Below the pieces are notes generated by a model, which saw nothing but the letters and a program-made list of their open reading frames with translations, was not told the origin of the DNA and did no database searches. The position numbers and the translations under genes were made by a program. Below are positions 19,533 to 26,639 of a stretch of DNA of 64,000 bases, one piece after another. The first letter of the stretch is position 1; every line of letters begins with the position of its first letter. Source of the stretch: Vicugna vicugna (Eukaryota); the NCBI GenBank assembly GCA_013265495.1, contig MU058206.1:622001-686000 (forward strand), given 5' to 3'.

Positions 19533-19583
19533 GGGACACTTCCATCCCATCCCTCTTCCTTACCCCCTCCCCAGGGCTGCCAA
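19533..19583 (+). repeat. Left copy of a ~50-bp direct repeat flanking the first LRRC37 insert
   Basis: GGGACACTTCCATCCCATCCCTCTTCCTTACCCCCTCCCCAGGGCTGCCAA; partner at 21099-21147. Confidence 0.85.
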
Positions 19584-20352
19584 CCTCACATCCCAGGAAA
19601 AAACTCTTCTTCATTTGTACTCGCTCTCATGTGATCCACAGATTATTCAAGGATTAGATGAATCACAATTTGAAATGGAAACAGCTACTCGAGAGTATTT
19701 GCAATCGGCCTCCATCCTCTGCAATGAGGAGCCCCATAAATTCTCCTCCACCAGAAGCTTTTCATCTTCAGGAGAAAAGAATTCTCAGAAAAATCCACCA
19801 GAATCATTTTCTCCTTCAGACCCTCCTGCAGGAAGGGCGACTGTGCCGGCAGGAACTAACCCTGAAGTCACTGCACGTGTGTCACAGCACATATTCTGTT
19901 ACTGCTGGCAACTTTATGCCAACTGTTCAACACACGCACAAAACACAATGGGAATACCACAGCGTGGGCACTGAATTACCCTCTAAACCCACCGGCTTCA
20001 CTTTTCCCAGGGCTTTCATCCTTGGGTGATGAAATTCAGCTAAACCAGCCGCTACGGTCCCCAATCCCCAGTAATGACGTTAGAAGTCTCATTTCTCTTG
20101 TAATGCAGACGTTGAAGATAGACTGCTCTGAGGCCTTCGTGCAGCCGGCCTATGCCAAGCTCATCTCCAGAACAGGCCTCCTGATGAAGCTTCTCAGTGA
20201 GCAGCAAACAGTAAAGGTGTCCAAGGCAGAGGGGGATACTGACCAATAGAAAACGAATAATTACATGAGTGAGAGCACAGAGGCCAGAGTGAACAGAAAG
20301 GGCAGGAGTCAAGTGAGGAGAGGACAACGCCTGAGACATGGGGACCTGGACT
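19584..20352 (+). pseudogene. LRRC37A: LRRC37-family fragment: 3' part of the large post-LRR exon, with frameshifts and stops
   Basis: Translates in shifting frames to [25 protein letters not shown] and [36 protein letters not shown]...[32 protein letters not shown]. This matches recalled human LRRC37A [37 protein letters not shown]...[32 protein letters not shown]. The paralogue cannot be determined. Confidence 0.9.
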
Positions 20353-20384
20353 TATCAGTGTAGGACATGCCATTACAGTGCAGG

Positions 20385-21040
20385 AATCTGGACACGGAGA
20401 AAGAGGCTTGGACTGGGACTGGAAACATTTCAATAGGAAAATGAGCAGAGCCCTCCTGCTGCTCTGGAGAATTTTCAGCCTCCTTAGTGGGCTCTGGAGT
20501 TATAACTGCTAGATCTAGGGGTTTAACTGTGAGGTTAGGCATCACTGGATGCTGAGCTCCATCTGGACCTGCAGGTGAAAATGTCACCTTACTATGTACT
20601 AGCGGTTTTGCTGCAACATCTGTAGAGATGTCTGGAGGCGGAGTTGGGTGCTGATGCTTGACTGTAGTAGGTTCAACCTCCTCACGGATCTCTAGAGGCT
20701 GAGATGGGGCCACCCGCTCAACTGGATCAACAGGACAGTGTCCAGGGACAGGGCCCAGGGTCCAGCAAACTGATATGGCCCTGCAGGCAGCTCTCCATCT
20801 GTATTTGTGTCTGGCTAGGAAACAAAGCCTCAGGCAATTCCTGATGAGGCCTGGCCAACCTCTGGGCTGCAGAGGAGGGTGTCAAGTAATTCAACCCCCC
20901 CAGCTCTGCCCAGGGTGTTGGCCTGTGGGGAGATTCAGGTGGGAGTTTAGGGACTGTGAAATCCAAGGCTCGATCAGCCCCGGGGAGTCAGAGGTCAGCT
21001 GGACAGGGTCCAGGGACAGCTCCGGGCGCAATCTGCCTGG
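20385..21040 (-). pseudogene. LRRC37A: LRRC37-family fragment: internally deleted pieces of the large first coding exon, inverted relative to the adjacent fragment
   Basis: ELSLDPVQLTSDSPGLIEPW (human [20 protein letters not shown]), LPPESPHRPTPWAE, and the LRRC37 repeat VTFSPAGPDGAQHPVMPNLTVKPLDLAVITPEPTKE. Frameshifted; no signal peptide. Confidence 0.88.
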
Positions 21041-21098
21041 AATAACAGGCAAAATGCTTAAAATGCAAAGAGGGACTGTAGAAACAAAAAGTGCCACA

Positions 21099-21147
21099 GG
21101 GACATGACACCCCATCCTCCTTCCTTCCCCCTCCCCAGGGCTGCCAA
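21099..21147 (+). repeat. Right copy of the ~50-bp direct repeat
   Basis: GGGACATGACACCCCATCCTCCTTCCTTCCCCCTCCCCAGGGCTGCCAA; the last 21 bp are identical to the left copy. Confidence 0.85.
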
Positions 21148-24398: not shown

Positions 24399-24399
24399 G

Positions 24400-25430
24400 G
24401 CCCAGCCCCTCTCACGGGCGTTTTTTAAAAAGCGCGGGCGCTCCTTGCGCTGGCGCAGTGCTGCTTCCGCTGGAGCGGCCAATGCGCGGAGTGGGATGGT
24501 GGAGTTGGTTCGTTTCGCGATTCCCACCAGGAGTGACAAAACCTTGCTGGTGTGGGAGCTGAGCTCCGAACCCAGGACCGAGGCCTTGCAGGTGATTTGG
24601 CCAGGGTGGAGGGAGGGATGGAGAAAGCTACCCTCCCCCCAGTAACTGGGAGTCCTGGGCCAGGTGATCCACTCCCACCGCCGCCCGAGCCTCGCGTCCC
24701 AAGGTGACCCCCGCACTTAAAGAGCTTATGAACTAGTGGTGAGGAAAAGATGCACAAACAAATCAATAAAGAATAATGCTCTGCGTGGGGAAGGGAGCGT
24801 GTAGTAGTGCTGGGGGTGGGGGTAGCAGCGGTGGTTCTGTACGGGGCTCTCTTGGAACGCAGGGATGTACACACGCTGGTCCCTCTGCCTGCTCAGGGCG
24901 GCGGTCGACTGGGCACTGAGCCTCCTCCCGTTCCCGGCCCCGGCCCCGGCCCGGAAAGGCGGGGAGCCGCGCCAGCAGCCGGGGCGCACCAGCCAGAGCC
25001 GTTACCCGCAGGAGCTGCGAGGGAGGGAAGGGAGCGATCTAGGGATCGGGGAAGGGATGGCTCCGCTGCGGCGCACGCGCGCCGCGCCCCGCCTGCCCTG
25101 TCCGCCTGGTTCCGCTGGGGAGAACGGAGAGGAAGGGGGCGGCCCTGATGGCCCGGGTGCGGCGCTCCCCAGGACGGCCCCTACGCGCCCCGGGTGGCAG
25201 AGCGGGATGGGGCCGGCGCGATCTGATCTGCCTCCACCGCCAGGGCGGCGGGAAGCAGGCGGTGCTGTGCGCAGGCGCGCCCGGCTGAGCCCTCCGCTTG
25301 GGGCGGCCCGAACTGGGTTGGGGCATGCGGAGACGGCCTCCAGCCCCCGCCGGGCCTGAGCCGCAACTGCTAGAAGCCGGCGGCGGTTGTAACGGCAGCA
25401 GGCCTAACGGCCCAAAGCCGGCACAGAAGA
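24400..25430. promoter_or_regulatory. CpG island: RDM1 promoter region plus a second GC-rich promoter-like block
   Basis: Dense undecayed CpGs; CCAAT at 24479-24483; NRF1-like gcgcacgcgc (25071-25080) and tgcgcaggcgc (25268-25278); GC boxes. Confidence 0.75.
24496..24591 (+). pseudogene. RDM1: Orphan first coding exon of RDM1 (RAD52 motif-containing 1)
   Basis: MVELVRFAIPTRSDKTLLVWELSSEPRTEALQ followed by donor GTGATT; recalled human RDM1 begins MAELVPFAVPIESDKTLLVWELSSGPTAEALH. No later RDM1 exon seen in the window. Confidence 0.9.
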
Positions 25431-25840
25431 TCTAGGCACTAGGCCACAGCACTTCACACCTCTGATCTTGCTTTTGCTCACCTGTAAAAGGAGGGAGATT
25501 TAAAATGCCTGTTCTGCCCACTTCTGGGGGAGAAGGGAGTAATATAATAGGTAAAAAAATTTTTTTTTGAAAAATAAGCAAAATTTTTATTTAAGTGGCA
25601 AGATGTTATTATTTATAATGTGCTCCAGATCATTGATAGAGACCATATTCAAGCTGTTCTGGGCACGAAAGCACATCTTGGAAGTCATCAAGTTAAGTGC
25701 CAGTAAATCTAATGTATAGAAAAATCCTTGAAAGCATCTGAGTGTTTTGTGGATAGAAATGCTTGAGATTCAGAGCAATTTGAACCCCTTAATTACTTGA
25801 TAGATAATATAACTAAGAACTAATAAATATAATTAACTTA

Positions 25841-25908
25841 AGATACTGGATGGATAGCAAGCCTTTAAATGATTCCTTACATAACTCAAAGAATTTTTTC
25901 TGAGAATT
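25841..25908 (-). pseudogene. LRRC37A: Degenerate single-LRR exon of LRRC37 within AT-rich, probably intronic, DNA (about 25440-26340)
   Basis: Minus strand reads ttttcag|A ATT CTC AGA AAA AAT TCT TTG AG- TTA TGT AAG GAA TCA TTT AAA GGC TTG CTA TCC ATC CAG TAT CT|taagtt, matching recalled [24 protein letters not shown]. It is 68 nt rather than 72 and the donor G is lost. Confidence 0.8.
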
Positions 25909-26400
25909 CTGAAAAGTGACATGGTTGTTTTTGGATCAAAATGCAAAACTTCAATTATTTACTATATAGGACTAACTTCTATATGTTGGGGAAACCTGGG
26001 TAATGGTGCCACCTAAATACCCTAATTCTTACTCAATTTGGAGATGGTGATCTCTGCTCCGTTTTCATTTAATCATTTCTCACATCTTCTTTTGTGTCCA
26101 TCTCTCTCCATCACATACACGCACACCCCTATCCGCTCTTAATCACCAAATACATTTAATGCCTACTCTTCAGACCACAAATTCTTAGAACCCAACGCTG
26201 GGTAGCACTAATGTTGCAGAGCTGCCATTCTTTTCTCTTTTCCCAAACCGTATCTGGAAGTCCCAGACAGAACTATATTAAGGCTGCAAATGAAGCCATT
26301 TGATTTTTCCCCCATTAATTTTTCCCCCAAGCGACACTGACAAACATGCGGAGGCCACGGGAGGCCGCGCCAGACGCGGGCACCAGGGGACTGTGGGTTA

Positions 26401-26639
26401 GTGTCCTCCAGGAGTAGCCAACACCAGGTCACTCTCTGAAGTCCGTCACCCGGCCCTCCCGCTCTGGCCGGGCCCTTGGGTGGAGGGAGAGGACTTAATG
26501 GCCAGCAGAGGGGGCCAGTAAGCAGAGCATTCGCGGGTTTGGGGAGACTGGAGGTGGACTTTGGTGGCCCATCCAGAAGGGCTGAGAACAGTTCTCCGAA
26601 GGAAGACCCTTAACTCCTGGGCACCTCATTCTGCCTCTG
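26401..26639 (+). repeat. Right, unexpanded 239-bp copy of the direct repeat flanking the RDM1/LRRC37 insert
   Basis: Colinear with 23887-24399 once the internal tandem expansions are removed; scattered substitutions in the 5' part, last ~85 bp identical. Confidence 0.92.

What the first reader, a model, noticed from the sequence alone, without database searches (positions are those of the whole stretch)
19533..26639. Two scrambled LRRC37/RDM1-derived inserts, each bracketed by a long duplication of the target site
Seen: insert 1 (19584-21098) sits between ~50-bp direct repeats and insert 2 (24400-26400) between ~240-bp direct repeats. Each insert is a concatenate of 2-4 pieces in mixed orientations, with promoter and intron-type DNA and no poly-A, LTR or TIR. 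Known: L1-mediated TSDs are roughly 7-20 bp; LRRC37 is the core duplicon of human chromosome 17 segmental duplications; human RDM1 pseudogenes occur near LRRC37A copies. Inference: replication or repair template switching (FoSTeS/MMBIR-like) left this site, copied several pieces from an LRRC37-RDM1 donor locus and rejoined upstream of the departure point, twice within 7 kb. This would be a small-scale record of how the LRRC37 duplicon seeds new sites in a non-primate lineage.
Basis: partly seen in the sequence, partly recalled or inferred. Interest (0 to 1): 0.85.

Follow-up and report, generated by a model that had tools for sequence, protein, structure and literature searches.

The report
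LRRC37/RDM1 fragments inserted upstream of TMEM92
Two patchwork pieces of the LRRC37/RDM1 gene cluster were pasted, each with a long duplication of the landing site, just upstream of the TMEM92 gene of a camelid, and one of them brought a promoter-like CpG island and first exon that a public gene model splices onto TMEM92.

Summary
Insert 1 (19584-21098) lies between 36-51-bp direct repeats. Insert 2 (24400-26400) lies between ~240-266-bp direct repeats that occur nowhere else in the genome. Every piece maps inside one RDM1-LRRC37 gene unit (model copy C5342:31-64 kb), in mixed orientation, with 0-5 bp microhomology at the joints. There is no poly-A, LTR, TIR or splice-site boundary.

Three corrections:
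- Insert 1 is exonic LRRC37 debris, not intron.
- Its inverted joint is shared with a second dispersed fragment (C8808, inside an L1-like repeat, no flank duplication). That joint therefore arose once, not necessarily here.
- The two inserts have overlapping ages and could be one compound event.

Replication-based template switching (MMBIR/FoSTeS-like) remains the best mechanism but is unproven. No outgroup or read-level test was possible.

New points: piece a of insert 2 is RDM1 exon 1 with its CpG island, still CpG-rich (o/e 0.77 against 0.18-0.26 in host DNA). The model XP_031530517.1 (TMEM92 isoform X3, Vicugna pacos) uses it as first exon, spliced in frame to TMEM92 exon 2. A third partial LRRC37/RDM1 copy (~11 kb) lies 51 kb downstream of insert 2.

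This is a new member of a known kind. Interest is moderate.

The parts
19533..19583 (.). Left copy of flank duplication 1. The secure part is 19546-19583, with a 20-nt exact core at 19564-19583.
19584..20381 (+). Insert 1, piece p1. A fragment of the large C-terminal coding exon of LRRC37 (aa ~1495-1742 of P0046), sense on +, broken by frame changes and a TAG. About 81% identical to C5342:62958-63777. The donor homology starts at 19580, giving CCAA microhomology with the host.
20387..21098 (-). Insert 1, piece p2. LRRC37 exon-1 repeat region, sense on -. 20387-20723 matches C5342 40972-40619. After a skip of about 1.8 kb of the paralogues' repeat array, 20772-21090 matches C5342 38814-38613. 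The joint 20381|20387 is shared with C8808.
21099..21147 (.). Right copy of flank duplication 1
23887..24152 (.). Left copy of flank duplication 2. Carries one extra 28-bp unit compared with the right copy.
24030..24398 (.). Perfect 3.0-copy tandem of the last 123 bp of the left flank copy. It ends 1 nt before the insert 2 junction.
24400..25404 (+). Insert 2, piece a. RDM1-type CpG island (GC 0.68, CpG o/e 0.77) holding RDM1 exon 1 (24496-24591, ATG to CAG|GT) and the start of intron 1. 71-76% identical to 5 or more paralogous copies. CTG microhomology at the left junction.
24496..24591 (+). RDM1-like exon 1, identical to aa 1-32 of XP_031530517.1 (TMEM92 isoform X3, Vicugna pacos).
25410..25776 (-). 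Insert 2, piece b. LRRC37 intron DNA, 93% identical to C5342 60888-60524.
25777..26323 (-). Insert 2, piece c. LRRC37 intron DNA around a 72-nt LRR exon, 84% identical to C5342 51001-50410. AA microhomology with b.
26326..26400 (-). Insert 2, piece d. A 75-bp stretch that in paralogues lies about 70-110 bp beyond the end of piece a, here inverted. 92% identical to C6399 and 84% to C5342 32147-32073. GT microhomology with the host.
26401..26639 (.). Right copy of flank duplication 2
30292..34594 (+). TMEM92 gene. The canonical first coding exon starts at 30292. The exons shared with isoform X3 are 32942-32967, 33785-33874, 34127-34244 and 34482-34594.

Best explanation
Pieces of the RDM1-LRRC37 duplicon were copied as DNA into the intergenic region 4-11 kb upstream of TMEM92 in the ancestor of this camelid lineage. 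The copying was one compound event or two separate events.

The most likely mechanism is repair of a collapsed replication fork (a one-ended break). In this model the broken strand invaded the LRRC37/RDM1 locus at 3-5 bp microhomologies, copied a forward segment and switched to the opposite strand. It then returned to its own template 36-51 bp (site 1) and about 240-266 bp (site 2) behind the point of departure. That return re-copied the host stretch and left the flank duplications. This is the MMBIR/FoSTeS type of event.

Insert 1 is now dead exon debris. Insert 2 delivered an RDM1 CpG island with exon 1, which a public gene model uses as an alternative first exon of TMEM92.

Shown: the anatomy, the donor family, the uniqueness of the flanks, the microhomologies and the letter-for-letter match of the gene model.
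Inferred: the replicative mechanism, the number of events and any promoter activity.
For: - The flank duplications are real, diverged by about 5% and about 14%, and unique in the genome.
- All six pieces map within one gene unit, C5342:31.2-63.8 kb, and the jumps between them are 9.5-29 kb.
- Each insert is one forward segment followed by reverse segments.
- Junction microhomologies inferred from paralogues: CCAA (4-5 bp, 3 of 3 paralogues), CTG (3 bp, 3 of 3), AA (2 bp), GT (2 bp), 0-1 bp and 0-2 bp.
- None of the 30 genome matches to insert 2 crosses any of its joints by more than 8 nt.
- The donor boundaries of insert 2 lack GT/AG, and no terminal inverted repeat is present.
- Gu et al. [quoted passage not shown] They regard iterative template switches as the mark of FoSTeS/MMBIR.
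- TMEM92 link: all five exons of XP_031530517.1 match the window at 100% with GT/AG borders.
- The CpG o/e of piece a is 0.77, against 0.18-0.26 in flanking host DNA.
Against: - The inverted joint of insert 1 is shared with C8808. In the tree the window copy and the C8808 copy are sisters, with 86/87 support. At least that switch may therefore predate the arrival at this site.
- The C8808 fragment sits in an L1-like repeat with about 19 bp of target missing and no duplication. That is an end-joining signature, so this family of fragments can move without replicative re-entry.
- The reverse pieces are collinear, so later deletions could mimic template switches.
- The microhomologies are inferred from paralogues that are 7-29% diverged.
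- The TMEM92 X3 model is a computational prediction found only in nr. It lacks the signal peptide and the transmembrane segment of canonical TMEM92.
Confidence: 0.55

Rival explanations
1. Capture of pre-formed scrambled DNA. In this reading the composite fragments already existed, either in a rearranged LRRC37 pseudogene copy or as extrachromosomal DNA from the unstable cluster. They were then ligated into breaks by end joining, and the flank duplications came from filling in widely staggered breaks.
For: The same inverted joint occurs in the window and at C8808 with different outer ends. C8808 is inserted in an L1-like repeat with a small target loss and no duplication. Microhomology is 5 bp or less.
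Against: Staggers of 36-51 nt and about 240-266 nt are far beyond what end joining normally fills (my knowledge). No other copy of any insert 2 joint exists among the 30 genome matches. The window fragment extends beyond C8808 at both ends (C5342-equivalent 62958 against 63319, and 38613 against 39027). C8808 could therefore be a secondary copy of insert 1.
Confidence: 0.22
2. Fewer switches, more decay. In this reading each insert arrived as one long forward-plus-inverted copy tens of kilobases in size. It was later whittled down by internal deletions to the present 1.5 and 2.0 kb.
For: The reverse pieces lie in descending collinear donor order: 60888-60524, 51001-50410 and 32147-32073 for insert 2, and 40972-40619 then 38814-38613 for insert 1. 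Piece d lies beside the end of piece a in all paralogues checked. The 11-kb copy downstream also has an internal 18-kb skip.
Against: Three or more large, clean deletions would be needed in a short span. One inversion joint per insert and the long flank duplications would still need explaining. This is a variant of the main explanation rather than an alternative to it.
Confidence: 0.12
3. RNA-mediated copy made by L1 reverse transcriptase, with twin priming or template switching between transcripts.
For: Insert 1 consists only of exon sequence and has one inversion. Twin priming is reported to cause most inversions under 2 kb in human genomes (10.1101/2021.12.20.472354; only the start of the abstract, seen in the listing).
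Against: There is no poly-A at either end on either strand. The flank repeats are far longer than the 7-20 bp typical of L1 (my knowledge). Insert 2 holds intron DNA and DNA upstream of the RDM1 ATG. The insert 2 piece boundaries tested on C5342 are not splice sites, and the insert 1 joint lies inside coding exons. Neither end of insert 1 is the 3' end of the mRNA.
Confidence: 0.03
4. Assembly artefact: chimeric joins, or falsely duplicated flanks, in a fragmented assembly.
For: The genome has 12,405 contigs, and LRRC37 copies sit at contig ends. The perfect 123-bp triple tandem could be an assembler product.
Against: The flank copies have diverged by 5-14%, whereas artefactual duplicates would be identical. 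The inserts differ by 7% or more from every paralogue. 19 runs from 8 studies and 4 organism codes hold 0.82-0.96 of the 855 sampled 31-mers of 19000-27200. A public gene model links the insert 2 exon to the TMEM92 exons.
Confidence: 0.03

Closest known systems
Complex chromosomal insertions formed by iterative template switching (FoSTeS/MMBIR; Gu et al. 2016, PMC5120786)
   Same: Several templated segments in direct and inverted orientation. Microhomology of 0-6 bp or blunt joints. The donor is retained. A duplication can occur at the receiving site.
   Different: The cases here are small (1.5-2 kb), old and apparently common to four organism labels in public runs, not de novo clinical events. 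The donor is a multicopy duplicon. One joint is shared with another locus, so single-event origin cannot be shown.
Primate LRRC37 core duplicon and its acquisition of foreign promoters (Giannuzzi et al. 2013, PMC3530683; Bekpen et al. 2012, PMC3371713)
   Same: The LRRC37 family is expanded and dispersed, and promoters of unrelated genes are joined to genes by duplication. Here the RDM1 exon 1 and CpG island head LRRC37 copies (XP_072796451.1 maps at 100% to C8827).
   Different: The lineage is a camelid. Giannuzzi et al. report one copy in cow and one complete copy in dog (passage read), so this is an independent expansion. PF14914 is found at 6 loci here. The direction is reversed too: here a duplicon-borne promoter module is donated to a single-copy neighbour, TMEM92.
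Dog chromosome 9 complex CNV holding RDM1, ARHGAP27 and LRRC37 homology (Berglund et al. 2012, PMC4053742)
   Same: RDM1 and LRRC37 sequences lie together in an unstable region of a non-primate (passage read).
   Different: That report concerns megabase-scale copy-number variation. No small dispersed inserts, joints or flank duplications are described in the passage I read.
L1 twin-priming inversions and processed pseudogenes
   Same: An insert of about 1.5-2 kb with an internal inversion, flanked by direct repeats.
   Different: No poly-A. The flanks are 36-266 bp long. Intron and upstream DNA are present, and the joints are not at splice sites.

Membership tests
FoSTeS/MMBIR-type complex templated insertion | Two or more templated segments joined out of order or orientation | tested here: met
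   Insert 1 is + then -. Insert 2 is +,-,-,-. All pieces map to one gene unit.
FoSTeS/MMBIR-type complex templated insertion | Short (0-6 bp) microhomology or blunt joints at the breakpoints | tested here: inconclusive
   The inferred values are CCAA, CTG, AA, GT, 0-1 and 0-2 bp. They rest on paralogues that are 7-29% diverged, not on the true donor or an empty site.
FoSTeS/MMBIR-type complex templated insertion | Copy-number gain: the donor is retained and host DNA is duplicated at the re-entry point | tested here: met
   Paralogues retain every piece. The host flanks are duplicated and unique to this locus.
FoSTeS/MMBIR-type complex templated insertion | All joints created in a single replicative event at the site | tested here: not met
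   This fails for insert 1, whose inverted joint is also at C8808. For insert 2, none of the 30 genome matches shares a joint, which is compatible with the feature but is not proof.
L1-mediated retrocopy (including twin priming) | A 3' poly-A tail, target-site duplication of about 7-20 bp, and spliced or intron-free content | tested here: not met
   No poly-A. The flanks are 36-51 bp and about 240-266 bp. Insert 2 holds introns and an upstream region. The boundaries lack GT/AG.
Cut-and-paste DNA transposon or Helitron | Terminal inverted repeats (or Helitron ends) with a short TSD of fixed length | tested here: not met
   No inverted repeat of 30 nt or more lies in 18500-27500. By my reading the insert ends are not complementary. 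The two flank repeats differ in length.
Segmental duplication in the usual sense (>=1 kb, >=90% identity) | Length of 1 kb or more and identity of 90% or more to another genomic copy | tested here: not met
   Only the 367-bp piece b reaches 93%. The other pieces are 71-84% identical, or 92% over 63 bp. These are old, decayed seeds.
LRRC37 gene family (source of insert 1 and of pieces b and c) | Pfam LRRC37 repeat and LRRC37AB_C domain | tested here: met
   PF15779 at E 2.1e-14 and PF14914 at E 2.4e-29. PF14914 hits the window copy with one TAG stop inside.
RDM1 (source of piece a) | Exon 1 peptide homologous to RAD52 motif-containing protein 1 | tested here: met
   The window exon is 87.5% identical to the paralogue at C1629:700118-700213. 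That paralogue hits named RDM1 proteins of many mammals. A direct search with the window exon found only the TMEM92 X3 model.

The most novel reading that the evidence does not exclude
In camelids, and perhaps other Laurasiatheria, the RDM1-LRRC37 duplicon acts as a recurrent donor of small templated insertions. These insertions carry a still-active CpG-island promoter and a phase-0 first exon. Landing upstream of unrelated genes, they create new chimeric transcription units: TMEM92 here, and the LRRC37 copies themselves. This would be a promoter-dispersal role for a core duplicon, arisen independently of the primate case.
Probability: 0.22. Interest if true: 0.7.

Novelty: new member of a known kind. 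Interest (0 to 1): 0.5.

Why it matters
This is a nucleotide-level, evolutionarily retained example of a multi-segment templated insertion with long re-entry duplications, a class known mostly from clinical and tumour genomes.

It also shows that LRRC37, the chromosome-17 core duplicon of primates, has expanded and shed fragments independently in a camelid, carrying the 5' end of RDM1 with it.

If the inserted CpG island really drives the RDM1-exon-1/TMEM92 transcript, it is a concrete case of a duplicon fragment donating a promoter and first exon to a single-copy gene. That is the mirror image of the promoter captures described for primate LRRC37. For annotators it is also a warning that such fragments generate odd isoform models.

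Tried and rejected
No junction, allele or 123-bp copy-number test was therefore possible.

RDM1 identification. A first search with the 99-aa ORF found nothing. A 32-aa query was too short. Identification succeeded only through the paralogue.

Splicing hypothesis for the collinear pieces b-c-d. Rejected, because there is no GT/AG on either strand at the donor boundaries.

A third LRRC37 insert at 41649-42291. Rejected: this is a high-copy interspersed repeat (13,870 first-look candidates), which by my reading looks like an L1 3' end.

The neighbouring partial copy at C1629:697614-709000 as cis donor. Not supported. It lacks p1, p2, b and c, and its piece a is the most distant from the window copy (K2P 0.266). 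No long flank repeat was found around it.

Two events of different age. Not resolved (Fisher p=0.054; branch lengths overlap).

Pfam scan of 57 long ORFs of the window. Only DUF4657 at 5015-5974 was found.

A crude script search for the canonical TMEM92 exon 1 found nothing. The exon was then located with a homologue.

Literature. The search LRRC37+alpaca found 3 papers, of which 2 were listed. I judged neither to be on this subject from titles and abstract starts alone. LRRC37+RDM1 found 6 papers, of which only the dog CNV paper is relevant. I therefore found nothing in print on these inserts within that library.

The earlier-findings index holds no note containing 'LRRC37' or 'RDM1'.

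
Full report
**Setting.** The window is G000:C1629:622001-686000 of a 2.03-Gb mammalian assembly with 12,405 contigs. Five exons of the RefSeq model XP_031530517.1 (TMEM92 isoform X3, Vicugna pacos) match the window letter for letter. The genome is therefore that camelid or a very close relative. On the + strand the window holds:
- an ORF with Pfam DUF4657 at 5015-5974, the only family found among 57 long ORFs;
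- the two inserts, at 19.6-21.1 kb and 24.4-26.4 kb;
- TMEM92, whose canonical first coding exon starts at 30292 and whose last exon ends at 34594.

**Observation.** The direct repeats are real.
- Repeat 1 is 19533-19583 against 21099-21147, 86% identical over 51 columns, E 4.7e-8. A 20-nt exact core touches the left junction. The first 13 nt align poorly, so the secure length is about 36-38 nt.
- Repeat 2 is 23887-24152(+1) against 26401-26639, with 12 mismatches in about 239 columns and one 28-bp indel.
- A whole-genome search with 23800-24398 returned only the query and the two parts of the right-hand copy, 3 of 3 matches. This is a local duplication, not a dispersed repeat.
- The left copy is followed by two extra copies of its last 123 bp. 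All three are 100% identical, and the array ends 1 nt before the junction.

**What the inserts are made of.** Insert 1 carries LRRC37AB_C on the + strand (E 2.4e-29) and an LRRC37 repeat on the - strand (E 2.1e-14). I used the alpaca LRRC37A model P0046 to define the gene unit. P0046 matches contig C8827 at 98-100% and also maps to C5342 and C885. On that unit:
- Piece p1 (19580-20381) lies inside the large C-terminal coding exon (aa ~1495-1742). It carries frame changes and a TAG.
- Piece p2 (20387-21098) is the exon-1 repeat region read backwards. It skips about 1.8 kb of the repeat array compared with paralogues.
- Insert 1 is therefore exon debris, not intron DNA.

Insert 2 has four pieces:
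- a, 24397-25404, +;
- b, 25410-25776, -, an LRRC37 intron, 93% identical to C5342;
- c, 25777-26323, -, intron DNA around a 72-nt LRR exon, 84% identical;
- d, 26326-26400, -, 92% identical to C6399.

Piece a contains an intact ATG-to-GT exon at 24496-24591. Its paralogue at C1629:700118-700213 is 87.5% identical in protein. That paralogue hits 'RAD52 motif-containing protein 1' of many mammals and also the first exon of the alpaca LRRC37A isoform X3. In this lineage the duplicon is therefore a partial RDM1 placed directly upstream of LRRC37, in the same orientation. On C5342 the RDM1 exons lie at 31.3-36.3 kb and LRRC37 starts at 38.1 kb.

**One donor unit, no surviving donor.** In C5342 coordinates the pieces are:
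- p1, 62958>63777;
- p2, 40972>40619 then 38814>38613;
- a, roughly 31.2-32.0 kb, forward;
- b, 60888>60524;
- c, 51001>50410;
- d, 32147>32073.

All lie in one 33-kb gene unit. Each insert is a forward segment followed by reverse segments in descending order. K2P distances to the best paralogue are 0.160 (p1), 0.103 (p2), 0.234 (a), 0.069 (b), 0.115 (c) and 0.068 (d). These are about as large as the distances among the paralogues themselves. Piece a looks older only because the CpG island evolves faster. Between C1629:700 kb and C5342 the island is about 75% identical while the adjoining DNA is 88-92% identical. In trees the window copies sit on terminal branches of 0.081 (p1), 0.055 (b), 0.075 (c) and 0.18 (a), in star-like topologies. 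The inserts therefore date from the era of the family's expansion, and the true donor is lost or unassembled.

**Joints.** Inferred from paralogues, the joints show:
- host|p1, CCAA, 4-5 bp, in 3 of 3 paralogues;
- host|a, CTG, in 3 of 3 paralogues;
- b|c, AA;
- d|host, GT;
- a|b, 0-1 bp;
- c|d, 0-2 bp.

The donor boundaries of insert 2 carry no GT/AG on either strand. No inverted repeat of 30 nt or more exists in 18.5-27.5 kb. No poly-A is present at any end. These features exclude splicing, retrocopying and transposons as sources of the structure.

**The shared joint.** Of 26 and 23 genome matches to insert 1, exactly one crosses its internal joint. That match is C8808:499802-500563, at 84% identity. 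C8808 holds LRRC37 exon 1 (C5342 39027-40976) joined to the inverted C-terminal exon (63777-63319). This is the same breakpoint pair as in the window.
- The 2.9-kb C8808 fragment lies inside a copy of a high-copy interspersed repeat (13,870 candidates). About 19 bp of the repeat is missing and there is no flank duplication.
- The window and C8808 copies are sisters in the tree (86/87 support).
- The window fragment reaches further at both ends. C8808 could therefore derive from insert 1, or both could derive from a lost rearranged donor. Either way this joint arose once.
- None of the 30 matches to insert 2 crosses any of its joints by more than 8 nt.

**One event or two.** Flank divergences are 7/51 against 12/237 (Fisher p=0.054), and the branch lengths overlap. 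I cannot separate the two ages. A single compound path would run: host, p1, p2, back 36-51 bp, 3.3 kb of host, a, b, c, d, back about 250 bp. It is as plausible as two hits.

**Neighbourhood.** A third LRRC37/RDM1 partial copy lies at C1629:697614-709000, 51 kb beyond insert 2 and in the same orientation (its RDM1 exon lies 54 kb beyond the window's). It equals C5342 roughly 29-33.8 kb plus 52.2-57.5 kb. No long flank repeat was found around it. The remaining 36 kb of the contig has no LRRC37. PF14914 is found at 6 loci in the genome (7 matches), and several LRRC37 copies sit at contig ends. Giannuzzi et al. report one LRRC37 copy in cow and one complete copy in dog (PMC3530683, passages read). 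Berglund et al. describe a dog CNV region holding RDM1, ARHGAP27 and LRRC37 homology (PMC4053742, passage read). The camelid expansion is thus independent of the primate one.

**Mechanism.** Long duplications of the receiving site, together with several templated segments in both orientations and short microhomology, match replication-based repair with template switching as described for human complex insertions (PMC5120786, passages read). A one-ended break that re-enters its own template behind the departure point produces the duplication directly. End joining would need staggers of 36-266 nt.

I rate this explanation at about 0.55. Three things hold it down: the shared joint, the end-joining-like C8808 insertion, and the possibility that the collinear pieces are deletion remnants.

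**Consequence for TMEM92.** XP_031530517.1 joins 24496-24591 (RDM1 exon 1, phase 0) to 32942-32967, 33785-33874, 34127-34244 and 34482-34594. All borders are GT/AG, and the canonical exon 1 at 30292 is skipped. Compared with a canonical-type homologue (P0087), the model lacks the signal peptide and, through an internal acceptor, the transmembrane segment. It is found only in nr.

Piece a is still a CpG island: 1005 bp, GC 0.68, 90 CpG, o/e 0.77. Host DNA has o/e 0.18-0.26. This fits continued germline hypomethylation, but promoter activity is an inference. Bekpen et al. (PMC3371713, abstract read) showed that primate LRRC37 genes gained promoters from BPTF and DND1 by duplication. Here the flow is the other way.

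**Support from public runs.** 19 runs from 8 studies and 4 organism codes hold 0.82-0.96 of the 855 sampled 31-mers of 19000-27200. Both inserts are therefore present in near-identical form in several close relatives.

**Verdict.** This is a well-preserved new example of a known kind of rearrangement, with an added and testable twist: a duplicon-borne promoter and exon annotated as the first exon of a neighbouring gene.

Noticed in passing
window 24030-24398: A perfect 3.0-copy tandem of a 123-bp unit ends 1 nt before the insert 2 junction. The right-hand flank copy has a single unit that differs at 4 of 123 positions. This is a very recent expansion, concerted evolution or an assembly artefact.
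   Followed up: partly
L006 (C8808:497672-500563): A 2.9-kb LRRC37 composite (exon 1 plus the inverted C-terminal exon) is inserted into an L1-like interspersed repeat, with about 19 bp of target missing and no flank duplication. It shares the inverted joint of insert 1.
   Followed up: yes
L007/L017 (C1629:697614-709000): A third partial RDM1-LRRC37 copy (~11 kb, with an internal 18-kb skip) lies 51 kb downstream of insert 2 in the same orientation. Three duplicon-derived segments therefore lie within about 90 kb around TMEM92.
   Followed up: partly
window 5015-5974 (+): A 320-aa open frame matches Pfam DUF4657 (E 2.3e-92). It is the gene upstream of the inserts.
   Followed up: no
window 41649-42291: A copy of a high-copy interspersed repeat of about 660 bp (13,870 first-look candidates in the genome). 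The same family lies just upstream of LRRC37 exon 1 in several paralogues.
   Followed up: partly
L001/L007 (C5342:30905-31959 against C1629:699719-700736): The RDM1 CpG island is only about 75% identical between paralogues whose adjoining DNA is 88-92% identical. The island diverges two to three times faster than its surroundings.
   Followed up: partly
proteins P0068, P0070 and P0042: The RDM1 exon-1 peptide also heads other public models: a felid 'RDM1-like' model with an LRRC37AB_C domain, a narwhal hypothetical protein with CUB and PDGF domains, and a human thymus cDNA product. These are possible further fusions or annotation artefacts.
   Followed up: no
contigs C10464, C9185, C3564: LRRC37/RDM1 copies sit within a few kb to about 100 kb of contig ends. 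The family probably breaks the assembly, so copy counts are lower bounds.
   Followed up: no
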